DNA of 64,000 bases from Zootoca vivipara (Eukaryota). The notes under the pieces were generated by a model. It was given only the letters and a program-made list of their open reading frames with translations, did not search any database and was not told the origin of the DNA. The position numbers and the translations under genes are program-made. The stretch is taken from positions 24,614,001 to 24,678,000 of the forward strand of contig NC_083281.1 in assembly GCF_963506605.1 (NCBI RefSeq), given 5' to 3'. Shown here one piece after another: positions 528 through 59,411 of the stretch; the stretch's first letter is position 1; every line of letters begins with the position of its first letter.

Positions 528-1520
528 TTATATTATTTACACCCCGCCCTTCCCAGTCAAGATCGGGCTCAGGGCGGCTAACAACAAAAATATCAAAACA
601 AGCATAAAAGAAACAATTCAATTAAAATACAGATTAAATACAATGTTAAAATTCAATTTTAAAATGGGAATCTAAAGTGGACCCTCATTTAAACATCTGT
701 AGGATTAAACCTTAGGGGAGGGGAACACCGGGGTCAGACTGAGTCAGTCCGAAGGCCAAGTGGAACAACTCTGTCTTGCAGGCCCTACGAAAACAACTCT
801 GTCTTGCAGGCCCTCCCGCTGGGCCCTAGTCTCCTGAGAGAGAGCGTTCCACCAGGTCGGGGCTAGTACTGAGAAGGCCCTGGTCCTGGTCGAGGCCAGT
901 CTAACCACCTTGTGACTCGGGATCTCCAGTATGTTATTATTTGTGGACCTTAATGTCCTCTGCGGGGCATACCAGGAGAGGCGGTCCCGTTGGTACGAGG
1001 GTCCTAAGCCGCATAAGGCTTTAAAGGTCAAAACCAGCACCTTAAACCTGATTCTGTACTCCACTGGGAGCCAGTGCAGCTGGTAAAGCACTGGAAGAAT
1101 GTGATCCCGCGGCGGGGACCCCGTAAGGAGTCTCGCTGCGGCATTCTGCACCCGCTGGAGTTTCTGGGTCAGTTTCAAGGGCAGCCCCGCGTAGAGCGAG
1201 TTACAATAATCAAGCCTGGAGGTGACCATTGCATGGATCACTGTGGCCAGGTCAGGCTGAGAAAGGTAGGGTACCAACTGCTTAATGCGGCAGAGATGGA
1301 AAAATGCCACCTTGGCTGTGGTTGCAACCTGCGCCTCCATGGAAAGGGAGGCATCCAAGGTTACACCCAAGCTCTCGACAGAAGGGGCTGACACTAATTG
1401 AGCCCCAGCAAAAGATGAAAGTTGCCCCCCCCCGCCCCATGTCATCCTGACCTAACCAGAGGACCTCTGTCTTCGAAGGATTTAGCTTCAGCCAACTCCC
1501 ATGTAGCCATCCAGCCATAT
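478..1520 (-). mobile_element. 5'-truncated L2-type LINE fragment (end of RT, 3' UTR, (TAA)n tail)
   Basis: ORF 744-1445 has L2 C-terminal motifs (SRLDYCNSLY.GLP, LHWLPV..RI.FK); (TAA)n tail at ~478-527. Confidence 0.85.
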
Positions 1521-11647: not shown

Positions 11648-12712
11648 TCAGTGCTCAGAGGCTTTTGCAAAAACATTCTCCGCATCTTCCTCGACATCTT
11701 GCAGAAAGCATTGCAGCATGAAGTAGATGGTTCTGAAAGAATCAGCTCCACTAACTAAATTGCCCAACACAGGTATGAACTCAACAATCTGTTCTAGCAC
11801 TGTCTGTGCTTTCCACACCTCTGACCTGGCCAAGAGATCAAGTACAAATTCTTCGCTGATCTCATTAGCCAGTGGAGACTTCTTAATAACTGATTTCAGC
11901 TCACTTAGAGGTTTACCAACCCGGTTTGCAAGCCTCCTCAGGGACTCTTCATCCAACCCAAAAGCCATGCAGAGCTTTTTGAGTGTTGTCAACAAGAAGG
12001 AAACATGGAAAGATAATAGGAGAGTTAACCGATTCACAGAGCCAAAATACAAAGCCACAAGGGCCTGCTTCCAAATAAGGTTCCTCATCTCAATTTTCTT
12101 CTTCTTCAGGATATCTCTTGAGAATGTTGGCATTGAGAGAAGGAAGGCGTGTCTTTTGAGATGATCTAGTTCATTCTGCAAGGTTTCTTGCAGAATGGGG
12201 AAATCATACATGCTCAAATCCCAATTTGATATCAGAAAAACCTTTGGAGAAGCCTCTCCCAGTTTTCTCAGTTTATCGCAACAGTCTTGCCTTAAGTCCT
12301 TAAGTGTCTCCATTTCATTGAAGGTGGGTCTCCTTCTTTCAGCAGCCATGCTAAGATTAATTTTAGGGTGCACATAGTAAAACTTCTTTTTCATTTTCTG
12401 AATCTCACGTGCCAGCTGGGTGTCACTCTCTGTAAAGCGTTCTGAAGCAATGATAAAGAAATCGTATTTGCTAAAATCTACCTTCTCCAGATATTCATCT
12501 GCTCTGAATTCATCTGTTCCAATTCCTGGTAGATCCCATAGTGTCACCTTGGGAAACTTCGGGTGCTGATATTTTTTCGCAATCATGGTTGTCTGTTTCA
12601 GCCCTACCCTAGCTGAGCCCTCTTCAAAATCTGTCATACCCCGCAAGGCATTGACAAGAGAAGACTTGCCAGCACCTGTACGCCCTGTGATGGCAATGTC
12701 AAGTGTGGCATT
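11648..12712 (-). CDS. IRG (IRGC-like) G-domain plus C-terminal helical domain; 3' part of the terminal exon of the tandem IRG gene
   Basis: G1 GRTGAGKS, G3 WDLPG, YDFFII, altered G4 HPKIN, FLISNW, LKRHAFLLS, FGLDEESL; reads in frame with 13559-13694 once the hAT and one TSD are removed. Confidence 0.85.
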   Translation of the reverse strand, partial: NATLDIAITGRTGAGKSSLVNALRGMTDFEEGSARVGLKQTTMIAKKYQHPKFPKVTLWDLPGIGTDEFRADEYLEKVDFSKYDFFIIASERFTESDTQLAREIQKMKKKFYYVHPKINLSMAAERRRPTFNEMETLKDLRQDCCDKLRKLGEASPKVFLISNWDLSMYDFPILQETLQNELDHLKRHAFLLSMPTFSRDILKKKKIEMRNLIWKQALVALYFGSVNRLTLLLSFHVSFLLTTLKKLCMAFGLDEESLRRLANRVGKPLSELKSVIKKSPLANEISEEFVLDLLARSEVWKAQTVLEQIVEFIPVLGNLVSGADSFRTIYFMLQCFLQDVEEDAENVFAKASEH

Positions 12713-12720
12713 GCCTAGCA

Positions 12721-13558
12721 CAGGGGTCTGCAACCTTTAAGACAAAAAGAGCCACTTGGACCCGTTTCTGAAGGAAAAAAAATAAACTGGGAGCCGCAAA
12801 ACAGGGACGTAATTAGAAATCAGAGGGCCCCATAGCAAAATTTGCTATGCCCAATAATCAATGCCCCAAAATGCCATAGAAAATTAATCAGGGCCCCAGT
12901 GTACCATAAATCATAATCAGTGCCTGATGTAAATAATAATTAATAATGAGGGCCCAATGTCATCCTCGTCATTATAAAAATAACTTTGAGTTTGGGCTGC
13001 CTTGATTACTGGGAATGGGCAAAACTCTGACTCCCTTATTAGGACACCTGTATGGTTTCATGTGTGTTGCTCCCATCAAGTGAACTTATAAAATTTCCTC
13101 ATATTGAATGAACCCATTGATTAATACATCTACCTCAATCTCCTGACCAGGCCGGCAGGAGGCCACAGGCAGGCCGCAGGCAGGAGCAGCAGCAGCAAAC
13201 AGGCGCTCCGAGCCCGCAAGCCTTTTCTGTTGCTGGGCGGGAAGAAGCGCGCCCGTTTTAAAAAATAAATAACTCCGCCCCCACCCCCATGAGCCTATTG
13301 GCTGCAGAAATGCGGCGGGGAGGGGCTGATGCAGGGAGGGGGCCGACCACGCTCCCCGGGCTGCTAACGTCACCTTGCGTCCTTTTTGCACAGCGGCGGT
13401 GGGCACCGTGCGAGTGTCTGGCGGGCGTGGCGGGCGCCGCCACATGGCTCAGGCAGCGCATGGCTCGGACGCCTCCTCCCCTCGTATCCGCTCCGGAGCC
13501 GCAGCAAAGGTGTAAAAGAGCCACATGCGGCTCCGGAGCCGCAGGTTGCAGACACCTG
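12721..13558. mobile_element. 838-bp non-autonomous hAT (Charlie-like) element inserted in the IRG coding exon
   Basis: TIR CAGGGGTCTGCAACCT / AGGTTGCAGACACCTG; perfect 8-bp TSD GCCTAGCA at 12713-12720 and 13559-13566. Confidence 0.95.
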
Positions 13559-13694
13559 GCCTAGCAAATCTAACTCTTGCCGAATCTGAGCTACCACATC
13601 TGGGAGATTTCTTTGTCTTAAAACAGCCTTCATATTTTCCAAGTCAGCATTAAAGATGGCAAGCCACGTGGCTCTTCTTGATGTATCACTTGAT
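13559..13694 (-). CDS. N-terminal helical segment of the terminal IRG exon, upstream of the hAT insertion
   Basis: Acceptor TTTTTTTCTTTCCTAG|A; encodes ...ADLENMKAVLRQRNLPDVVAQIRQELDLLG, which aligns with DLAEVKAALEQKKLEDVSAEAQQQSNLLK of the 42532 paralog. Confidence 0.8.
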
Positions 13695-13861
13695 CTAGGA
13701 AAGAAAAAAAGCATTTTATTTTTTTTAAAATACTACTTATTTTTCTTTGACAACCTAGATACAGCTGCATGGAGGTGAATTGATCTTTGTAAGAGTAGTC
13801 CTGATGGAGGTTATTGCATGCCAAGGCACCTGAACCACAAAGTTCCCAGGAGAACAATAAG

Positions 13862-15630
13862 TCACACTGACACAGAATATTTTGGTTTATGGGTTCAAAT
13901 AGGCCACAACTTTATTGGTTACAGATGTGAGCGCAGGGCCATCTTATGCCTATCCAGCGCCGTGGTTCAAGAAGCCCTCCAGCGCCCCGTCCCCCGTTCC
14001 CATAGTTGCTGGGGCTGGAGGAGCGGGCCACTCCCCCCCTCTTTATTGGGGTGTGTGCGTGTGCAGAATAGAGCGGACCCAGGAGTCCCGGCTCAGCTCC
14101 CCACACCCTCCGCCTCCTCTCTGCTCCAGCCCCTCCCCTCTGGCTTGGCTTTGCTGCCACGCCGCACTGCGCGGCACGGTGGGTGCTGCCGAGGGTGCGC
14201 GCAATGAACGGGGGAGGAGGAGGAGGGCAGGGAGGGATGGAGAGAGTGCAGGGCCTGCCTCTCCTTCCTCTTCCTCTGCGTGGCACCAGGGCCGCTGGCC
14301 GGGACCAGCGCTCGCCTCTCCATCCTGGCAGGGCTGGAGGGCGACTCCTCCAGCAGAGAAGAGGTGGAGGCTCTGGGCACGGCACTGCTTCGGCATGGCA
14401 AGTGAAGGCACCACGTCCAGCCTCCACCTCTTCCTGCCTCGGTGGCCATGGCAGGCAGAGGCTCCGGGCGCGGCGCTGCTTCGGTGTGGCGGCCAAGGGC
14501 GCTGCGTCCAGCCTCCGCCTCTTTCCAGGCGCCAGGGAAGCCCTGCCCAGCAATGGCAAGAAAGTGACAGTTGCTGAGGGGAGGGAGGGGCAGGGTCCCA
14601 AGCACAGTGCCAGCGTGTGCGCAGTCGGTGCAAAGACCGACGAGGCATGCGCAGATCGGGTCGCCTCCAAGCTCTCCTCCCCTTTTCTTTGCTTCCCGCA
14701 ACCTTTTTCTCTGCACGCCTGCCAGCCATAGGGTTGACAGGGCACAGCTGGCAGGCGTGCAGGAGGCCGTGCAGCTCCCCCACTTGCTGGGGCACCCCTC
14801 AGCGCCCAGCGCCCTGGTGCAATGCCCCAGTAAAATAAATGGGAAGGACGGCTCTGTGTGAGCAGTTTGGCTCAGGCATTGGGGTGAAGCCAGACTATAT
14901 CTTGACTCCCGCCTGTCTGCAGGGAATCCACAGAAAGGTAAACCACTGATAGGGGGTGCCCTATAACTTACATTAGACAGTGGCACCCCGAGGGGTCCCT
15001 GTAGGGGCTGTGACACGGCCCTATCCCATGTCCAGGCTTCAGACAGGATTCACACCCCGGGTCCCTTTAACAGGATACCCTTACTGAGGAGGGGCAAGTG
15101 AGGCAACAACCTCCCCTCCATCCAAACAAAGGCTTACCCAATGCCTAACCTCACAAAAGTTGTGACGATTGCTACTAGGTGGGCGAAAACCAAATGGCCG
15201 GTGCCAATTTGCCAAGTGGGGAAAAAATCCTACCTGGCCCCAAGAACTTGGCGACCGACAACTGACATAACAAGGTCATATCTGAGCAAAGCATGAAAAG
15301 TGGGTGGGTGGGTAGGGTGATCTGATGAAGAGGCAAGGAAGAGAGAGTTGGCCGGCCAGCCGTGCCGAGTTTAAATGACCCATGGCCACACCTACCTTGG
15401 CCTCAGATTGGCAGATGACTGCACTGGCTGTGTAGCGGGGGGGGGGGAGGCAGCATACCTACCCCTACGCCGGAAAACTGTTGAGGCTCGGCTGACTGGC
15501 TGCAATGCCATACACCAGATAAAAGGTGAACGGACCTGCCAGCTAAACAAGACCCATATGGAGACTCTGGGCTTCCCACCTTCGCCTCTGAAGCCCAAAG
15601 GTTGAAGGGGAAAACTGAGGATCAATACAG
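13862..15630 (-). mobile_element. Probable LTR- or DIRS-like non-coding retroelement remnant hosting the 13934 hAT
   Basis: Minus-strand AATAAAGTTGTGGCC terminal-like segment and non-genic character; ends and family not established. Confidence 0.3.
13934..14856. mobile_element. Non-autonomous GC-rich hAT element
   Basis: Ends CAGGGCCATCTT / AGGACGGCTCTG; TSD TGTGAGCG / TGTGAGCA; subterminal homology to 17290-17426. Confidence 0.8.
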
Positions 15631-16169
15631 TGATCGGGATGTGTCTGGAGGCTATTGGTGTGTCCAGGTGAGATATTAATGAGATAGGACACTTCAGGCT
15701 GCCTTAGAACCATTGTGTGTTCCTCATTTATATGGGAAGGGCATATAGCCCAGTGGCAGGGCATCTGCTTTAAATGCAGGAGATCACAGGTTCAATCCCT
15801 GACATTTCCAGTTTGGGCTGGGAACGTGCCCTTTCTGAAACCCTAGAGAGCTGCTGCCAGTCCATGTAGCCAGTACAAGGTCTAGCTCAATAAATGGTCT
15901 GACTCAACATAAGACAGCTAAGTTCCTTACTAAGGTTCTGCACAGGGTGTCATTACTCCAAAGAGGTATGTATCGTTTGAGTCAGGAAGGACCCTGACAA
16001 AGAGAAGTGATTCTGCAACTGCAACTTCTGCAACTGAAACCTCCAGACACAGTTTGCTTTGTGCTCTTATCCCCTGCCGGCATAAATGGCAGGAGCCTTG
16101 CCAGAGGCTTGGAAAGAATAGAGGAGCATCAGATGATGACATAAATGGCCTAAGCTGAACCCAACATAC

Positions 16170-16850
16170 CTATCAAGTAACTGGTTTAGTACTAAGGCAC
16201 GCCTCTTGAGATCAGTAAATTCTTCTTGCAGGGTCCTTTGCAGGAGGGGGAAATCATACATGCTCAAATCCCAATTTGAGATAAGAAAGACCCTTGGAGG
16301 AGACTCCCCGGCCTTTGCCAGATTTTCACAGTAGTATTTCCTTATTTCCTTAAGGGTTCTGTCCTCCGTGAAGTGTGGGTTTCTTTTTTCGTCAGCTATA
16401 CTGACATCCACTTTGGTGCGCACATAGAGAAACCTCTTCTTCCTTTTCCTAATTTCACGAGCCAACATGGCATCGTGCTCGGTGAAGCCTATTTCGCCAA
16501 CAATGATGAAGAAATCATACTTTTTGAAATCCATGTCTTTTACGTATTTCTCTGCTGCAAACTCCTGTGTTCCGATTGCTGGCAGATCCCAGAGAGTTAC
16601 GTCGGGGTCGCTGGGGCACAGGTACCCTTTGAGTTCCCTAGTACCTTGTATCATATCAACCACGGCGGCACCCACCTCATTGTCTGCCATATTGCACAGG
16701 GCATTGACCAGGGATGATTTGCCGACACCTGGCCCCCCAGTGATGGCAACGTCAAGGCTACGTCTGCCTGGTGGGTGTTTTCTTTGAGCTGATGTGTCTG
16801 ATTGGGAGCTCTTAGCACCCATAGTTGCTCCTCCGGGACATTCATCAGGT
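16170..16850 (-). CDS. IRG G-domain-only cassette exon B (681 nt, phase 2-2)
   Basis: Acceptor TTCTGTTCTTACTTAG|A, donor AG|GTATGT; G1 GGPGVGKS, G3 WDLPA, G4 TKVD, FLISNW; internal MGAKSS; no C-terminal helical domain. Confidence 0.85.
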
Positions 16851-17116
16851 CTAAGTAAGAACAGAAATACCGCAATGGTTAACTCCTTTTTACATAAAGC
16901 TCCTGTTTAAAAAAGCTGCTTTGTAGGCCCAGTCCAGATCACTCACATTAAAGTCCTAAATAAACAAACATATGAAAGACTGGCTCCTTTCCTAAAGACC
17001 GCCCCCCAAATATCTGCAGTTCAAAAGTGCCACAGCAGTGGCCACACATGGGTAGGGAAGGGAAGGCATTGATCCAACAAGGACACACCCACTGCCACCC
17101 CATTATAAGGGAAAGG

Positions 17117-17426
17117 CAGGGCCGTCTTTAGCAGATGTGGCGCCGGGGTGCAAATATATACCCAGCCATCCGGCGGGCACTGCCAGCCATCGGGGGGGGG
17201 TTGCAACTCTCCCCCATGCCGCTGCGGGAGAGCGATCCTCACAGAGGCTTGAGAGGGAAGCTGCACATCCGCCAGGCTTATGGTTGGCGGGGCACAGCTG
17301 GTGGGCATGCAGGGAAAGGGGAGGCCGCCGGCAAAGCTGCACAGCTCCCCCACTTGATGGGGCACCCCTGAGAGGCCGGCGCCCTGGTGCAGCGCACCAC
17401 TAAGCCCTATGGGAAAGACAGCTCTG
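17117..17426. mobile_element. 310-bp hAT MITE
   Basis: Ends CAGGGCCGTCTT / AAGACAGCTCTG; perfect 8-bp TSD GGGAAAGG at 17109-17116 and 17427-17434. Confidence 0.9.
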
Positions 17427-17952
17427 GGGAAAGGGGTGGGCACAGCTTAGTGCTACAAGCAGCAAATGTTGCTGAATTACAGTTCCCATCAGCCATGGCC
17501 AATGGGCAGGGAAGATGGGAGTTGTAGTTCAGTGATATCTGGAGGGCCAAACGTTCTTTACACCTAACATACAGTATCAGATTCAGGGGAATTGAAATGG
17601 ATAGCCCACTTCATAGAGGCTTGATTCATGCAACGCAGGGCTTATCAGTTTAGTTATCAGGTAACCCCATTGCGTCCTTCCCACCTCACTGTTAAGGTCT
17701 GTGTGCAAGAGAGCACACAGGGGTGGGGTATAAATAACATCATCATCATCATCATTATTGCTTGATGCCAGGAGCTGGAGTCGGGTATGGTCAACTAAAA
17801 GAGGAAAGTGAGGAGAGATATGGTCTCTACATCCTTATATATGGCTACAGCCACAATAACACAGAAAAAAGAAACATTAAACATGTTTGCTTTCATATTG
17901 AGTTGAAGATATGTAATTGAATAAAGTTTGGCTTTAGCTGAAACCAACATAC

Positions 17953-18620
17953 TTATTGTGGATCTTCCTTCCTGCGTCCTGGGGTGGTAATAAGGCATGC
18001 CTCTTGAGATCAATACATTTGTCTCGCAGGGTCCTCTGCAGGAGGGGGAAATCGTACATGCTCGAATCCCACCTTGAGATGAGAAAAACCCTTGGAGGTG
18101 ACTCCCCGGCCTTTGTCAAACGTTCACAGCAATCTTTCCTTATTTGTGCAAGGGTTTTCTCCTCATTGAAGCTTGGTTTCCTGCTTTCAGCATATATAAT
18201 AACATCCACTTTGGTGCACACATAGAAAAAACCCTTGTTCATTTTCTGAATTTCGCGGGCCAGCATGATGACATCATCAGTGAATCTTCTTTCGCCAACA
18301 ATGATGAAGAAATCATACTTTTTAAAATCCATACCCTTTATGTATCTCTCTGCCGGAAACAGAGGTGGTTGAATCCCTGGTAGATCCCAAAGGGTTACAT
18401 CTGGATATTGGGGGTATAAGTACCCTGTTGGTTCCATAGTACGTTTTATCACATCGACCATAGCTGCCCCAGCATCATCGTCTGCCATATTCCGCAGGGC
18501 ATTGACCAGGGATGATTTGCCGACACCTGAGTCCCCTACAATGGCGATATCAAGGGTATGTTTTCCAGATGGCTCATTCATTTGAGCTAATGTGTCTTGT
18601 TTGCAGCTCTTACAAGCCAT
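17953..18620 (-). CDS. IRG G-domain-only cassette exon A (first coding exon, starts MACKSC)
   Basis: Acceptor TTCTTATTTAG| at 18648, Kozak GCCATGG at 18620, donor AA|GTATGT at 17952; G1 GDSGVGKS, G3 WDLPG, G4 TKVD, FLISRW. Confidence 0.85.
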
Positions 18621-19061
18621 GGCTGCTCTTCTGTGAGATTTATCACACCTAAATAAGAACAGAAATATTGCAGCAGTTAACACCTTCTGCATCTAAGTCC
18701 TCTTTTAAAACAGCTGGATCGATTGCCAGTTCATTTAGAGGCCCAGTTCAAACTACTCACATTAGTGTTTAACTCCATTGATCATTCCAAGGAAACCATA
18801 TTCTGGGTAAGCACTGGAACCCCTGGAATCTCTCACCGAACAGAAATTGGGGTGCAGGCAACATTGTAGTTATTAAAACTTCTTAAATAAATAGCTTTAA
18901 CAAATGCTCTTGATATTCCTGTACAGCTTCATCTACATCTCAGTTTTCCTGCCTAAACCCCCTGAAATGGCTGCAATGCTTTGATGAGAAGTTTTCAAAC
19001 TGCATAACTTGGACTTCCTGTCCTGGTGAGGGTTTCTCCTGGAGAGAGCAGCTCTTATATA

Positions 19062-21290: not shown

Positions 21291-21308
21291 TTCTGAGAAA
21301 GCGAAACC
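21291..21308. promoter_or_regulatory. Overlapping GAS + ISRE in intron 1 of the tandem IRG gene
   Basis: TTCTGAGAA (TTC-N3-GAA) overlapping GAAAGCGAAACC (GAAA-NN-GAAAC). Confidence 0.6.
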
Positions 21309-38623: not shown

Positions 38624-39655
38624 TTATTTGTACCCCGCCCACCCAGCTGGGTCTCCCCAGCCACTCTGGGCAGTTCCAACAAAATATTAAAATACAATAA
38701 AATGTCACAAATGAAAAACTTCCCTAAACAGGGCTGCCTTCAGATGTTTTCTAAATGTCGCGTAGTTGTTTATGTATTTGACCTCTGATGGGAGGGCATT
38801 CCACAGGGTGGGCGCCACTACCGAGAAGGCCCTCTGCCTGGTTCCCTGTAGCTTTGCTTCTCGCAGTGAGGGAACCACCAGAAGGCCCTCGGCGCTGGAC
38901 CTCAGTGTGTGGGCAGAACGATGGGGGTGGAGACGCTCCTACAGGTATACTGGGCCGAGGCCATTTAGAACTTTAAAGGCCAGCACCAACACTTTGAATT
39001 GTGCTCAGAAATGTACTCGGAGGCAATGTAAGTCTTTCAAGACCGGTGTTATGTGGCCTCGGCGGCCGCTCCCAATCACTAGTCTAGCTGCAGCATTCTG
39101 GATTAGTTGTAGTTTCCAGGTCACCTTCAAAGGTAGCCCCACGTAGAGCTGTGTACCAGATGGAGCTGATAGACAGCTGCCCTGGATACAGAACTGACCT
39201 GTGCCTCCATGGACAGCTGTGAGTCCAAAATGACTCCCAGGCTGCGCACCTGGTCCTTCAGGGGCACAGTTACCCCATTCAGAACCAGGGAGTCCTCCAC
39301 ACCACCCCGCCCCCTGTCCCCCCAAAACAGTACTTCTGTCTTGTCAGGATTCAACCTCAATCCATTAGCCACCATCCACCCTCCAACTGCCTTCAGGCAC
39401 TCACACAGGACATTCACTGGTTCCGATTTAAAAGAGAGGTAGAGGTGGGTATCATCCGCATATTGATGGACACCCAGCCCAAACCCCCTGATGATCTCTC
39501 CCAGCGGCTTCATGTAGATGTTAAAAAGCATGGGGGGGGAGGACAGACCCCTGAGGCACCCCACAAGTGAGGGCCCAGGGGTCTGAACATTCATCCCCCA
39601 CCCTCACTTTCTGGACACAGCTCAGGAGGAAGGAGCAGAACCACTGTATAACAGT
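38578..39655 (-). mobile_element. L2-type LINE fragment with (AAT)n tail
   Basis: YADDTHLY, LNPDKTE, LGVILDSQL motifs; tail at 38578-38625. Confidence 0.85.
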
Positions 39656-53815: not shown

Positions 53816-56800
53816 TCAACCACCCAAGAGTCCCAGCTTGACACGCAGGTTCTGGAAACTCTGTCTTGGCAGGGGTTTTGTTAGGATGTCTGCTGTCATC
53901 TCCGATGTGCAGCAGTACGACAGTTCGACAAGTCCATCTTGTATCATTTGGCGAACGTAGTGGTACCTGACCCCAATGTGTTTTGAGCGTGCTAGGAACT
54001 TCTCATTCTGCGCCAGCTTTAGACAGCTTTGGTTGTCCTCCAGCAGGCTTATAGGTTCCTTTCTCTCCACGCCAAAGTCTGTTAGGAGTTGGTCCAGCCA
54101 GGAAATCTCTCTGCACGCTTCTGTAGCCGCAACATATTCCGATTCTGTAGACGATAAAGCTATACATTTCTGTTTATAACTGCCCCATGTGATAGCTCCG
54201 CCCCCATACATAAAGACATGCCCGCTTGTGGATTTATAATCAGAATTATCACCCGCCCAGTCAGCATCAGTGTACCCAATGAGCTTAGGGTCACTGACAG
54301 CTGGTAACTTTAATTTACAATCCATTGTACCCTTAAGATATCGAACCACCCTCTTCACACCAACCCAATCATGCTCAGTGGGACTACTCACTTTCCTGCT
54401 GAGAATCCCTACTGCATTGGCTAAATCAGGTCTGCACGTGGTAACTAAATACAAAAGTTTACCAATCGCTGAACGATACTCTGTGTTGTTTGGCAGCAGC
54501 TTCGAATCCTCTTGGTTCTTTAAGAAGTCTGTAGCCATCGGGGTGTCGACGGGTTTCGCATCCTGCAATTGCATACTCTCCAACAGTTCAATTATCTTTT
54601 GCTTCTGATTAAGTAGAAATGAACCATCCTGTTCTCTTTCCACTTGAATCCCGAGGTAATACTCAACTGGTCCTAATTCCTTCACTTGCACTTCCTTGTT
54701 GAGGTGCTGGACTACATTTTTATAATCCCTGTCATTTGACGTTGCGATTAAAAGGTCGTCAACGAAGGCAAGAATATAAGAAAATTGTCCATTACTCTGC
54801 TTAGTGTACAAACACTTGTCAGCTTCACCTTGCTTGTACCCAAGTTTCACCAGCATTCCATGCAATTTCAAGTTCCAGGCTCTGGCTGCTTGTTTTAAAC
54901 CATACAGTCCCTTTTGAAGCTTGCAAACCAAATGTGCCTCATTTGGCTTTATAAAACCTTTAGGCTGCTTCATGTAAATTTCTTCAGAAATTTCCCCATG
55001 CAAAAACGCAGTAGCTATATCGATGTGTTTCACCTCCATCCCTTTAGATGCTGCGATGCTTAAAAGTAATCTTACGCTACTGTATCTTACTGTCGGTGCA
55101 AAGACTTGGTCATAGTCGTGGCCATATTGCTGTGAAAAACCTTGTGCCACTAGTCTTGCTTTGTAACGTTGCACCTCCCCTTCTGAACCCCTTTTAACCT
55201 TGAACACCCATTTGCTCCCAATTGCTTTCTTACCAGCAGGTAATTCTGTGAGTGTCCAGGTCTTGTTCTTGTGCAGTGCGTCAATCTCCTCCTGCGCGGC
55301 TTTCCTCCAGAGACTAGCTTTGGTGGCTGGCATCTGCTCTACCTCTTCCCAAGTGGAAGGTTCTGGTGGAGACGCCGACCCTGCAAAGTAGGACAGTCGT
55401 AGTGGCGGAACACCCTTGTTGGTTCTGGATGAGCATCTGACCTCTGGTTGTGCAACCGCATCAGCATCCTCATCCTCCTCCAACGCTGGCATGTCCACGT
55501 ACAGCTCCTCCTCTTCGTCTCTGGTGCCGCCAGGGGTCTGGACCTCTGCGTCTTCTGGGGTGTCGCCTGTAGGGGGTGTTGTGACACTAGAAGGTATATT
55601 AGTTCCTTGTGCTAAAGGAAAACTTATAAACTCTTCATCTGGTGACTCTCTAGAACAGTCAATAACAGTGTTCTTTGTATCAAACTTTCCTAGTTCATCA
55701 AAATGAACCACATGGTATGGGTCTACTCTGCCACTCTTTGGATCTAGAACTCTATATCCCTTTCCTCCAGGAGCATATCCAACCAGGATACCTGCTTTTG
55801 CTCTGGAGTCAAGCTTGTGTCTGCGCTCTTTGGGCACATGGTAATAACAGACACTTCCAAACACACGTATGTGCTGCAGACTTGGGACTCTCCCGTGCCA
55901 AAGTTCAAATGGTGTGCGTTCTGCACCCTTTGTAGGCAATCTGTTTTGCAAATAAATCGCCGTATTCGCCGCTTCACCCCATAGCTTCTGTGACAAGTTG
56001 GCCTCTTTTAACATGCACCTTGTCATCTCCATAATAGACCTAAACTTTCTCTCAGCAATGGAGTTCTGTTGAGGCGTGTAAGCAACTGTAGTTACATGTG
56101 CTATGCCTTCTTGTGCCATGATGGCCTTCATCTGCCGTGAGCAAAACTCTCCACCATTATCCGAAATTAAGGTGGAAGGAGCTCTCTGGAATTTGTTCTT
56201 CACCATGTTTAAGTACAGTTTGAACAATTCCGGTGTCTGACTCTTTTCTTCTAGAAAATATCCAACACTATATCTTGAGAAGTCATCTATAAATATCAGA
56301 ATGTACTTATTGTTTCCTAGGGAAGGTACATTCAGCGGACCACATAGGTCAGTATGAACAGTGTCCATGACTTTTGTGCTTCTCTTCTCTGTACAACGTG
56401 GGAAGGAAGGCTTGACTGCCTTTTCAGTTATGCAAGTTGTACAGTTTGGCATTGGTGTACTGCAATTCTTTACCTGTAGACCTTTTACCAGATTTTCCTT
56501 CTGCATTTTCAGGATAACGTTGGTGTCCCTGTGTCCAAGCCTTTTGTGCCAGAGTTCCAGATCTGGTTGATCCTTTCTGCTGGGTTGTGCAACCCTTGCA
56601 GACTCATTCTCTGAAATATCAATCTCATACACATCATTGATTAGTTTGGCTTGAATAAACACTTCACCATCTTTTATCACATTGCATTGTCCATTTTTAA
56701 ATATAATTTCAAAACCTTTCTTGTCCAAGCTAGACACACTTATTAGATTACAGTTCAGCTTTGGTGCATACTTAACATTACTCACTGTAGTATCAAAAGA

Positions 56801-57394
56801 CTCATTGTTCACTTTGAAATTCAAGTTCAAAGATCCTGCACCTATTGACTTTATAACATTTCCATCAGCAATTTCAATCTCAGACTGTTTATTATTGTCT
56901 ATTTCATTGAAATATTCCCTTTTATAACAGAAGTGGCTGCTTGCTGCACTGTCCAGAAGCCACTTATTGCGCTTTCCTTCACAGCTCTGGAAAGCTACAT
57001 TTCTTTCTTGCAATATCATTGCACGCCCACGACCCCCCTTCTTTTCGCCTTTTGGTGGAAAGGGGCGGGATTCATTCTTTGTAGATGCTCCATACTTGCG
57101 CTCAATATCCTTTAAGATTTGCGCTGCATCATCTCTGCTATTAATTGACGTTAGATGCTTATTGCGAAGTCCACTCAAAATTATGTGTCTGGCCTCGCTG
57201 TTCATGCGTTTCCAAGTTGCTATCTTTGCTAAATCCTCTTCTGCTTCGCCAGTAGGCATAGGATTTTCAATGGCATCCAAAACATTCCTTGCATCTAAAA
57301 ATGCTATCAGGCGTTGTTTCCAAAATACGTAATTGTGGTCATCTAAAGCCATTAATCCTAGGTTAACTCCACTATCAAAATCTGCAAAAGCCAT
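53816..57394 (-). CDS. Copia gag-pol polyprotein (1192 aa; gag internally shortened)
   Basis: Gag N-terminus NYVFWK, protease LLDSAAS, HKRLGH..CTTC, integrase HTDLCGP/SDNGGEF/AER, RT YKARLVA/LYGLKQA/FVDD, RNase H YTDADW/ADILTK. Confidence 0.95.
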   Translation of the reverse strand: MAFADFDSGVNLGLMALDDHNYVFWKQRLIAFLDARNVLDAIENPMPTGEAEEDLAKIATWKRMNSEARHIILSGLRNKHLTSINSRDDAAQILKDIERKYGASTKNESRPFPPKGEKKGGRGRAMILQERNVAFQSCEGKRNKWLLDSAASSHFCYKREYFNEIDNNKQSEIEIADGNVIKSIGAGSLNLNFKVNNESFDTTVSNVKYAPKLNCNLISVSSLDKKGFEIIFKNGQCNVIKDGEVFIQAKLINDVYEIDISENESARVAQPSRKDQPDLELWHKRLGHRDTNVILKMQKENLVKGLQVKNCSTPMPNCTTCITEKAVKPSFPRCTEKRSTKVMDTVHTDLCGPLNVPSLGNNKYILIFIDDFSRYSVGYFLEEKSQTPELFKLYLNMVKNKFQRAPSTLISDNGGEFCSRQMKAIMAQEGIAHVTTVAYTPQQNSIAERKFRSIMEMTRCMLKEANLSQKLWGEAANTAIYLQNRLPTKGAERTPFELWHGRVPSLQHIRVFGSVCYYHVPKERRHKLDSRAKAGILVGYAPGGKGYRVLDPKSGRVDPYHVVHFDELGKFDTKNTVIDCSRESPDEEFISFPLAQGTNIPSSVTTPPTGDTPEDAEVQTPGGTRDEEEELYVDMPALEEDEDADAVAQPEVRCSSRTNKGVPPLRLSYFAGSASPPEPSTWEEVEQMPATKASLWRKAAQEEIDALHKNKTWTLTELPAGKKAIGSKWVFKVKRGSEGEVQRYKARLVAQGFSQQYGHDYDQVFAPTVRYSSVRLLLSIAASKGMEVKHIDIATAFLHGEISEEIYMKQPKGFIKPNEAHLVCKLQKGLYGLKQAARAWNLKLHGMLVKLGYKQGEADKCLYTKQSNGQFSYILAFVDDLLIATSNDRDYKNVVQHLNKEVQVKELGPVEYYLGIQVEREQDGSFLLNQKQKIIELLESMQLQDAKPVDTPMATDFLKNQEDSKLLPNNTEYRSAIGKLLYLVTTCRPDLANAVGILSRKVSSPTEHDWVGVKRVVRYLKGTMDCKLKLPAVSDPKLIGYTDADWAGDNSDYKSTSGHVFMYGGGAITWGSYKQKCIALSSTESEYVAATEACREISWLDQLLTDFGVERKEPISLLEDNQSCLKLAQNEKFLARSKHIGVRYHYVRQMIQDGLVELSYCCTSEMTADILTKPLPRQSFQNLRVKLGLLGG

Positions 57395-57676
57395 CTTGGA
57401 ATCTCAAAATTCTAAAAATTTCTCAAAATTCAAAAATTTGCCAAAAATTCCAAAGTCAAAAACTCTAAAAATATCTCAAAATGCAAAATAATCTTCACTG
57501 CCTCTGAGTTCTCAGTGCTGTAAACTCTGAGGGAGGGGAGGGGTAGCTAATCCCCTAGGCACACTGGATAACAATAGACCATGTGCTTACCAGGAAGTTC
57601 TAACTGAAAAAATCCTACTCAGTTCAAAAATCACAATCCAAAGCAATCCTTCAAAAATACACAAAAATACGCAGTC

Positions 57677-58080: not shown

Positions 58081-58253
58081 ATTCATACCTTCTACCTATA
58101 AAGCTTTTTTGATTGGCAAATTATAATAATAGGGCCGACGCTGGAAATTTTATGGAGGGCATGCCACTCTCGTTAAATAAATGAATGCTTCTAGTTAGGC
58201 CGGTTGCTTAACATTTTCCTACTTCCTTTCTCTGCAGTGCACCTAGATCCACA

Positions 58254-59411
58254 ATGGTTGAAGACTTTGAGGTAGCCATTTTTCAGGGCCAATTGGCAGA
58301 TGCTGTGTCGCACGTGCTGGCAAAACCACTGCACTTTTTCAACAGCACTCCACTCAACATTGCCGTAGTAGGAGAGCCCGGCTCCGGGAAGTCTTCCTTC
58401 ATCAATGCCATGTTGGGTCTTCATGCTGATGACCCGCGTGCCGCTGCGACCGGCATACAGATGACGACATTGCAAGTCAAGGATTACCCACACCCGACAC
58501 TTCCGCAAGTGATCCTTTGGGACCACCCCGGAAAGGGTACGCCAACTTTTGGGGAGGACAAATCTGAGAAGAAGGCTGATTTAAATCAGTTTGATTTCTT
58601 CTTCATCGTCGGCTCCCAACGCTTCCGCTCCACCCATTCTGACCTGGTCCATGAGATCCAAGATATGGCCAAAAATTTCTACTTTGTGCGCACCAAAGCA
58701 GACCTGGACCTGTCGGCCGCCAAGAGGCAACAGCCATCCGACTACAATGAAGAGAAGGTCCTCTTGCACATCCAGGAGGACAGCAAAGAGTGCTTGGTAA
58801 GAGAAGGAGTGAGGGACCCACATGTCTTCATCGTCTCCAACTGGGAAGCCAACCGCTTTGATTTCCCCCTCCTGCAGGAAACGCTGAAGAACGATCTCTT
58901 GCGGCTGAAGAGGCAAGTCTTTCTGCACCGCTTCCCTAGCATCTGTCTGCCTATCTTAGAGAAAAAGAAAGCCTCTGTGAAGGAGAAGATTTGGACCAGT
59001 AGGCTTTGCTTGCTGGTAACTCTTGGAAGCCCAGTTCCTTTCCTTCTTCCCATGTTTCTTTTTAGTAAGTTCCGCTCCTGGTGCTTCCTAGACTTTGGCC
59101 TGAATGATCGATCCCTTGCAGCTCTGGCCCAGCGTGTTGGAAAGACAAGCACAGCCCTTAAAGCAGCAATGCAGTCCCTGGGAATGTTCTCTGCCATTTT
59201 ATGGGTGCTGCCAGACTTGGTGGGACTCTCAGTGATGGCTTATGAATATCACCGCTGGGAGCATTTCCCCATCTTTGGCTGCCTTCTGTCCGGAGGGGTT
59301 TCACTTCTTCGCACCTACTTCATGCTGCAGAAATGCATATTGGGTGCTGCGGATGACACCCAGAGGGTTCTGTCCAAAGCTCTTGAGGCAGAAGGGGGAA
59401 AGTCCATTTAG
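58254..59411 (+). CDS. Divergent immunity-related GTPase (385 aa)
   Basis: Acceptor CCTTTCTCTGCAG| at 58238; G1 GEPGSGKS, G3 WDHPG, G4 TKAD, FIVSNW, FGLNDRSL; hydrophobic C-terminal segments. Confidence 0.9.
   Translation: MVEDFEVAIFQGQLADAVSHVLAKPLHFFNSTPLNIAVVGEPGSGKSSFINAMLGLHADDPRAAATGIQMTTLQVKDYPHPTLPQVILWDHPGKGTPTFGEDKSEKKADLNQFDFFFIVGSQRFRSTHSDLVHEIQDMAKNFYFVRTKADLDLSAAKRQQPSDYNEEKVLLHIQEDSKECLVREGVRDPHVFIVSNWEANRFDFPLLQETLKNDLLRLKRQVFLHRFPSICLPILEKKKASVKEKIWTSRLCLLVTLGSPVPFLLPMFLFSKFRSWCFLDFGLNDRSLAALAQRVGKTSTALKAAMQSLGMFSAILWVLPDLVGLSVMAYEYHRWEHFPIFGCLLSGGVSLLRTYFMLQKCILGAADDTQRVLSKALEAEGGKSI

What the first reader, a model, noticed from the sequence alone, without database searches (positions are those of the whole stretch)
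12585..18470. All three G-domains of the tandem protein have a rewritten switch I
Seen: canonical paralogs read AATGVVETT (30292) and AKTGVKETT (42532). The tandem units read AMVDVIKRT (A), AVVDMIQGT (B) and ARVGLKQTT (C): first Thr->Val in all three, Glu->Lys/Gln in all three, Gly->Asp in A and B. Unit B also has G3 DLPA, while all P-loops (GxxGxGKS) are intact. Known: in mouse Irga6 switch I (AKTGVVEVT), T102 and T108 are phosphorylated by Toxoplasma ROP18 and E106 is needed for GTP hydrolysis. Inference: these may be nucleotide-binding but hydrolysis-poor domains, partly insensitive to such phosphorylation, consistent with a decoy or regulatory role.
Basis: partly seen in the sequence, partly recalled or inferred. 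Interest (0 to 1): 0.7.

Follow-up and report, generated by a model that had tools for sequence, protein, structure and literature searches.

The report
Lizard tandem IRG with pseudo-GTPase modules
This lizard immune GTPase gene belongs to a lizard-wide group whose extra front domains share an altered switch loop and likely act as tethered regulators rather than enzymes, while here its third domain is interrupted by a young transposon and its loop change is ordinary.

Summary
The three motifs are real and map to Irga6 T102, G103 and E106, but they are two separate things. Units A and B are helix-less G-domain modules of a lizard-wide class of tandem immunity-related GTPases (IRGs). Asp at position 103 occurs in 59 of 78 lizard modules, against 8 of 167 full-length units, in 15 genera from geckos to iguanians. 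Ile105 and the nucleotide-binding residues are conserved, which points to selection rather than decay. Unit C is ordinary: Gln106 is the majority residue in terminal units (53 of 65), and Podarcis keeps Thr102. One clade for A+B+C is rejected (p=0.0008). Kinase escape is poorly supported: Thr108, the main ROP18 site in Irga6, is kept in all three units. Best reading (inferred): tethered, nucleotide-binding, hydrolysis-poor modules with a remodelled G-G dimer surface that restrain IRG activation, a GMS-like role. No assay exists and splicing was not seen in reads.

The parts
17953..18648 (-). Exon A: helix-less IRG G-domain module; ATG at 18620; phase-2 acceptor and donor; N-terminus MACKSC (myristoylation Gly lost)
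   Evidence: exon join reproduces RefSeq P0004
18438..18464 (-). Switch I of A, AMVDVIKRT (V102, D103, I105, K106, T108)
16170..16850 (-). Exon B: second helix-less G-domain module; internal MGAKSS (myristoylation-type motif) at 16822; phase-2 junctions
16640..16666 (-). Switch I of B, AVVDMIQGT (V102, D103, I105, Q106, G107, T108)
16577..16588 (-). G3 of B, DLPA (Gly->Ala, shared with Podarcis B)
13559..13694 (-). 5' piece of exon C: acceptor and N-terminal helices of the full IRG unit, ending in one copy of the target-site duplication
   Evidence: matches Podarcis P0123 and P0125
12721..13558 (.). 838-bp non-autonomous hAT-type DNA transposon: 16-bp terminal inverted repeats (15 of 16 matching), 8-bp duplication at 12713-12720 and 13559-13566; in-frame stop at 13372-13370; possible internal intron 13373-12735
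11648..12712 (-). Rest of exon C: G-domain plus C-terminal helical domain of a full IRG unit, open frame to stop
12587..12613 (-). Switch I of C, ARVGLKQTT (V102 not in Podarcis; Q106 common in lizard IRGs)
12356..12370 (-). G4 of C, HPKIN (Asp186->Asn), shared with Podarcis
21291..21307 (.). Overlapping GAS-like and ISRE-like motif 2.7 kb upstream; possible promoter element, not above chance

Best explanation
Units A and B are helix-less IRG G-domain modules of a lizard-wide tandem class that keep the nucleotide-binding motifs, carry a conserved Asp103-x-Ile105 switch I, and likely act as tethered, hydrolysis-poor regulators of IRG activation. Shown: the modules sit in phase-2 exons ahead of a full IRG unit; the signature is conserved across 15 lizard genera; and in this genome a transposon interrupts the full unit C, whose own switch I is within ordinary lizard variation. 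Inferred from Irga6: Gly103 contacts the partner's ribose across the G-G dimer and so positions Glu106. An Asp there, with frequent loss of Thr107 and Arg159, would let the module bind nucleotide and occupy a partner's G face without normal mutual activation, damping GTP-driven oligomerisation on host membranes as mouse GMS proteins do. Inferred: the usual N-terminal MGxxxS motif anchors the module to membrane. Inferred for this genome: the product is most likely the 557-aa A+B protein without an effector unit, or a 918-aa form if the transposon's internal intron is spliced.
For: D103 in 59 of 78 distinct lizard G-only modules versus 3 of 65 terminal, 5 of 91 single and 0 of 11 full N-terminal units (rows are related, so the Fisher p overstates). 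Among 59 D modules: Ile105 53 (terminal 9 of 65), G3 Asp 59, G4 Asp 59, Arg159 lost in 18 (terminal 3 of 65). In proteins with three or more domains the module next to the terminal unit has D in 14 of 14, upstream ones in 6 of 16. dN/dS of A versus B 0.39; A, B and C all 87-88% identical to Podarcis. Non-gecko, non-skink D modules form a clade at 100/99 with switch I columns removed. MGxxxS/T in 35 of 48 proteins that start with a D module (2 of them fish) versus 24 of 78 lizard singles. No GMS motif in 400 aligned G-domains, including the 30 from this genome. Irga6 roles of G103, E106 and R159: PMC3042988 and PMC4774019. Transposon.
Against: No biochemical or binding data. The AlphaFold2 model of the Podarcis B+C orthologue folds both G-domains but has a disordered linker and pTM 0.56, so no fixed packing is predicted. 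38 of 59 D modules keep Glu106, and Gln106 is common in single lizard and turtle IRGs, so Irga6 rules may not transfer. 19 of 78 modules lack D103, and 5 single genes have it. The searches were seeded with lizard tandem proteins and could miss a distant GMS gene; 2 of the 30 own-genome domains lacked the G1 stretch. A single origin for gecko and other modules is not rejected (p-AU 0.375) but not shown. No splice junction reached threshold in the reads; the exon joins rest on phase and on RefSeq/UniRef models.
Confidence: 0.5

Rival explanations
1. The modules are decoys that soak up parasite kinases or pseudokinases, like mouse Irgb2-b1 with ROP5B.
For: An extra N-terminal unit as in Irgb2-b1 (PMC6420625, PMC3810784). 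Domain number varies from 2 to 5 across lizards. Large, recently duplicated cluster.
Against: The H4/alphaD surface that diversifies in Irgb2 is not unusually variable in the modules: lacertid alphaD 0.10 versus whole domain 0.08; gecko modules 0.28 versus terminal units 0.47 (an amino-acid proxy, not dN/dS). Thr108 is kept. The signature is conserved rather than diversifying. No lizard parasite effector is identified.
Confidence: 0.2
2. The tandem is an active GTPase with rewired chemistry: the module's Asp103 grips the partner's ribose or supplies an acid in trans and activates the Gln106 terminal unit.
For: Position 103 faces the trans ribose hydroxyls in the Irga6 dimer. In 41 of 51 D-module/terminal pairs the terminal unit has Gln106. 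The D module is always the one next to the terminal unit (14 of 14).
Against: No covariation: terminal Gln106 also follows non-D modules in 8 of 9 pairs and full N-terminal units in 7 of 9. Gln106 occurs in 31 of 91 lizard and 13 of 24 non-lizard single genes with no module.
Confidence: 0.15
3. The modules are protein-binding adaptors, like the N-terminal G-domain of human IRGQ, whose switch I/II pocket binds GABARAPL2.
For: Same architecture (G-only exon, phase-2 intron, full unit) as the IRGQ-like locus of this genome. IRGQ pocket described in bioRxiv 10.64898/2026.01.07.698103 (passages).
Against: No LIR-like motif at a conserved place in D-module linkers, whereas the IRGQ-like proteins have one. 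Unit B does not list IRGQ 8q6q among the 60 shown of 69 PDB hits.
Confidence: 0.1
4. All the changes are neutral decay of a dying gene.
For: True in part for C: transposon insertion; Val102 absent from Podarcis; lineage-specific changes 18:5 and 13:4 against P. raffonei (p 0.011, 0.049), though not significant against P. lilfordi (13:7, 13:8). Very few RNA reads.
Against: A and B show no excess changes, dN/dS is 0.39, and the signature is shared across 15 genera.
Confidence: 0.05

Closest known systems
Mouse tandem IRGB proteins (Irgb2-b1, Irgb5-b4, Irgb9-b8)
   Same: Adjacent IRG coding exons spliced into one protein (PMC1297648, PMC3810784).
   Different: Mouse tandems join two full-length units. 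Here the front units are G-domain only. Rodent-type full N-terminal units keep Gly103.
GMS regulators Irgm1-3
   Same: Altered catalytic interface (E106R, D164H, R159Q in GMS; PMC3042988) and the proposed role of holding effectors inactive (PMC2532785, abstract).
   Different: The lizard modules keep GKS, are fused in cis, lack a helical domain and use D103/I105 instead. The role is inferred only.
IRGQ (FKSG27) and zebrafish irgg-irgq1
   Same: An N-terminal G-like domain ahead of an IRG unit, and a truncated-G tandem with a proposed regulatory partner (PMC1297648).
   Different: G1, G3 and G4 are largely intact here, so it is not a quasi-GTPase by motif loss. This genome has a separate IRGQ-like locus at C6:22.95 Mb. 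The window's modules nest inside the lizard IRG expansion.
Irga6/Irgb6/Irgb10 GKS effectors (Pfam PF05049)
   Same: Fold and G motifs.
   Different: Switch I residues needed for hydrolysis in Irga6 differ; C has G4 Asn.
hAT-superfamily MITEs
   Same: Short terminal inverted repeats, 8-bp target duplication, many near-identical copies, no transposase frame.
   Different: Family not named by any search; hAT assignment rests on the recalled rule that 8-bp duplications mark hAT.

Membership tests
IRG / p47 GTPase (PF05049) | Pfam IIGP match above cut-off | tested here: met
   A 201, B 186, C 293 bits (cut-off 24)
IRG / p47 GTPase (PF05049) | G1 GxxxxGKS, G3 DxxG, G4 KxD | tested here: inconclusive
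   G1 met in all three; G3 is DLPA in B; G4 is KIN in C
IRG / p47 GTPase (PF05049) | N- and C-terminal helical domain around the G-domain | tested here: inconclusive
   present in C only and split there by the transposon; absent from A and B
IRG / p47 GTPase (PF05049) | Interferon induction and cooperative GTP hydrolysis | not testable with these tools
   one ISRE/GAS-like site; 2 matches in the window against 0.64 expected, 13 of 100 shuffles as high
Mouse-type tandem IRGB decoy | Two full-length IRG units | tested here: not met
   A and B end about 10-25 residues after the G-domain
Mouse-type tandem IRGB decoy | Diversifying H4/alphaD in the N-terminal unit | tested here: not met
   amino-acid divergence proxy only
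Mouse-type tandem IRGB decoy | Binds a parasite pseudokinase | not testable with these tools
   needs experiment
GMS (IRGM) subfamily | G1 Lys->Met | tested here: not met
   GKS in A, B and C
GMS (IRGM) subfamily | Restrains GTP activation of GKS proteins | not testable with these tools
   inferred only
IRGQ quasi-GTPases | Conserved GTP-binding motifs lacking | tested here: not met
IRGQ quasi-GTPases | LIR after the N-terminal G-domain | tested here: not met
   (pattern scan)
hAT MITE (insertion) | Terminal inverted repeats and 8-bp target duplication | tested here: met
   10 of 12 loci had both ends by my pattern, and all 10 had a perfect 8-bp duplication
hAT MITE (insertion) | Dispersed copies, no transposase | tested here: met
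   73 matches from 40 of 294 candidates scored; longest frame 120 aa

The most novel reading that the evidence does not exclude
Lizards, which may lack GMS regulators, evolved a built-in substitute before geckos split from other lizards: a myristoylated, helix-less pseudo-GTPase module whose Asp103 clamps the ribose of a partner IRG across the G-G interface and gates its activation. In this species a transposon has just cut the modules free as a stand-alone regulator, paralleling the G-domain-only human IRGM and the IRGQ architecture.
Probability: 0.25. Interest if true: 0.75.

Novelty: new variant of a known kind. Interest (0 to 1): 0.55.

Why it matters
Mouse IRG effectors need GMS proteins to stay inactive before infection, yet GMS genes are absent from fish (PMC1297648) and none was seen here among this lizard's 30 G-domain matches. 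How large IRG families are regulated outside mammals is therefore open. A conserved, fused module with a one-residue signature gives a direct test. It also offers a living intermediate for how IRGQ-like pseudo-GTPases arise. The searches found no paper on lizard tandem IRGs in the held library, which lacks most subscription journals; the proteins themselves are in RefSeq as 'interferon-inducible GTPase 5-like' or 'uncharacterized'.

Tried and rejected
RNA evidence: no RNA holder was listed. Three raw RNA runs read at about 6% gave depth of at most about 2 over the exons, mostly in the orientation expected for a minus-strand transcript, and no exon junction at threshold; this is inconclusive. 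One contig joining A to B switches inside a 34-base stretch identical in both and runs past B's donor, so I treat it as an assembly chimera or DNA, not as splicing. A second read lay for empty-site alleles gave no result, so polymorphism of the insertion is untested. The fold search returned only known IRGs and EngA/Der. Rejected: IRGQ orthology of this gene; a shared rewrite of A, B and C; D103-Q106 covariation; a conserved LIR; H4/alphaD hypervariability. No snake protein appeared in the 120 rows shown by each of three searches, which is weak evidence. Earlier-findings look-ups returned nothing. Before counting I dropped 27 partial domains under 170 aa, the three database copies of this gene and duplicate sequences. 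Lizard versus non-lizard labels were assigned by hand from source names. Supplements of the papers were not read; the Irga6 G103 substitution used and alignments of mouse switch I lie there.
Full report
Observation. The window holds three IRG G-domain frames on the minus strand (A 17934-18692, B 16067-16906, C 11648-12736) and three single-unit IRG genes on the plus strand. Alignment to Irga6 (1tpz, AKTGVVEVT = residues 100-108) gives V102/D103/K106/T108 for A, V102/D103/Q106/T108 for B and V102/G103/Q106/T108 for C. B has G3 DLPA. C also has G4 Asp186->Asn, which in Irga6 shifts preference to xanthine nucleotides and leaves inefficient GTP hydrolysis (PMC3042988, passages). Unit B matches a Zootoca vivipara RefSeq protein at 100%.

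Gene structure. A and B are exons with phase-2 acceptors and donors that end just after the G-domain, so they have no helical domain. Exon C begins at 13694 with the N-terminal helices of a full IRG and is interrupted by an 838-bp element (12721-13558) with 16-bp inverted ends and an 8-bp target duplication. The element is dispersed: 73 matches from the 40 of 294 candidates scored. All 10 of 12 loci with both ends had 8-bp duplications, and nine copies are 97-98% identical to it, with no long frame. Unspliced, A+B+C stops at residue 557, exactly the model XP_060131627.1. An intron inside the element gives exactly the 918-aa model XP_034973523.1. Both models carry the insertion; that they come from different assemblies is recalled, not shown. 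Podarcis raffonei and P. lilfordi have uninterrupted three-domain proteins of 841-852 and 824 aa. RNA reads were too few to show junctions.

Is the loop change special? I split the 246 proteins plus 30 own-genome loci into G-domains and classed them (27 partial domains, the three database copies of this gene and duplicates dropped). In lizards, Asp103 occurs in 59 of 78 helix-less modules, 3 of 65 terminal units, 5 of 91 single genes and 0 of 11 full N-terminal units; in non-lizard modules it occurs in 2 of 22. It is found in 15 genera of geckos, a skink, lacertids, an amphisbaenian, iguanians and anguimorphs (names; motifs). In the 59 Asp103 modules Ile105 is held in 53, more tightly than in terminal units; Gly107 occurs in 39; G3 and G4 Asp in all 59; Thr108 in 50; Thr102 in 38; Glu106 in 38; Arg159 is lost in 18. 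So the conserved change is D103-x-I105, not loss of Thr102 or Glu106. By contrast Gln106 is the majority in terminal units (53 of 65) and common in singles, and Val102 occurs in 23 of 65 terminal units. Podarcis C keeps Thr102.

History. With switch I columns removed, the modules of lacertids, Rhineura, iguanians and Elgaria form a clade (100/99); A and B are a lacertid duplication sister to Rhineura; gecko modules form another clade (53 of the domains used). Joining the two is not rejected (p-AU 0.375); joining A, B and C is rejected (p-AU 0.0008). A versus B dN/dS is 0.39, and all three units are 87-88% identical to Podarcis. Relative-rate counts show no excess in A or B, and an excess in C against P. 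raffonei but not P. lilfordi, a mild hint of relaxation after the insertion.

Mechanism. In Irga6, Gly103, Glu106 and Arg159 belong to the catalytic interface, and their mutation abolishes hydrolysis while most such mutants still bind GTP (PMC3042988, passages). The Gly103 backbone contacts the partner's ribose hydroxyls and so positions Glu106 (PMC4774019, passages). An acid placed at the neighbouring switch I threonine impairs Irgb6 (PMC11448365, abstract). Mouse GMS proteins carry their own changes on this surface and keep effectors from activating early (PMC3042988; PMC2532785, abstract). No GMS motif was seen in the 400 domains aligned, with the caveat that the searches were lizard-seeded. 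I infer that the modules bind nucleotide, hydrolyse poorly and occupy a partner's G face as tethered regulators (0.5). Most start with a myristoylation-type motif (35 of 48), lost in lacertid A. The predicted fold shows two ordered G-domains on a flexible linker (pTM 0.56), which neither supports nor excludes docking. Rivals: parasite decoy (0.2), trans-activation of a Gln106 partner (0.15), adaptor like IRGQ (0.1), decay (0.05 for A and B, likely for C's Val102).

Kinase escape. Thr108 is the major ROP18 site in Irga6 (PMC3006384, passages) and is retained. The mouse decoy Irgb2-b1 works by binding ROP5 through a diversifying H4/alphaD surface and is itself phosphorylated (PMC3810784, PMC6420625, passages). 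That surface is not unusually variable in the lizard modules.

Known systems. It is an IRG-family gene. It is not a member of the mouse tandem IRGB, GMS or IRGQ groups by the features tested, though it may work like GMS and is built like IRGQ. Tandem and quasi-GTPase IRGs, including a truncated tandem in zebrafish with a proposed regulatory partner, were described in PMC1297648 (passages). Six searches of the held library found nothing on lizard tandem IRGs. Verdict: observation partly confirmed; new variant of a known kind; interest 0.55.

Noticed in passing
G000:C6:22951208-22964442 (L028, L030, L029, L015): Two more genes with a G-only exon, a phase-2 intron and a full IRG unit. The L029 module matches the human IRGQ N-terminal domain (8q6q, E 5e-4); its partner L015 keeps canonical motifs and an acidic-aromatic LIR-like motif shared by tegu, Rhineura and Pogona proteins. 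A C2H2 zinc-finger gene lies next door (human IRGQ beside ZNF576 is recalled). Lizards may keep an IRGQ relative with an intact GTPase; a lungfish IRGQ-like protein (P0238) has two modules plus a full unit.
   Followed up: partly
proteins: Gln at the Irga6 catalytic Glu106 position is common in lizard and turtle IRGs (53 of 65 terminal units, 31 of 91 lizard singles, 13 of 24 non-lizard singles), although E106Q abolishes hydrolysis in Irga6.
   Followed up: partly
window 12356-12370: G4 Asp186->Asn in unit C, shared by three Podarcis species (5 of 65 terminal units), so older than the transposon insertion.
   Followed up: partly
window 58212-59411 and L021-L026: A multi-copy single-unit IRG with switch I AATGIQMTT and G3 DHPG: another atypical IRG subgroup.
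   Followed up: no
G000:C6:24.59-24.92 Mb: Cluster with about 24 IRG G-domain matches; identical proteins recur about 52 kb apart (L002/L003/L004, L019/L020, L023/L024): very recent segmental duplication or an assembly artefact.
   Followed up: no
window 12721-13558 and L032-L042: All nine other copies compared carry the same splice donor and acceptor strings used by the 918-aa model, so this transposon family could be partly spliced out where it lands in exons.
   Followed up: partly
window 53816-57403 (-): Open 1195-aa frame that reads like a Ty1/copia retrotransposon polyprotein (label from recall, not scanned).
   Followed up: no
window 744-1451 and 39127-39603 (-): Fragments that read like LINE reverse transcriptase (label from recall).
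   Followed up: no
window 16820-16822: Unit B keeps its own ATG with a myristoylation-type start, lost in Podarcis B, so a transcript skipping exon A would give a membrane-anchored module.
   Followed up: no
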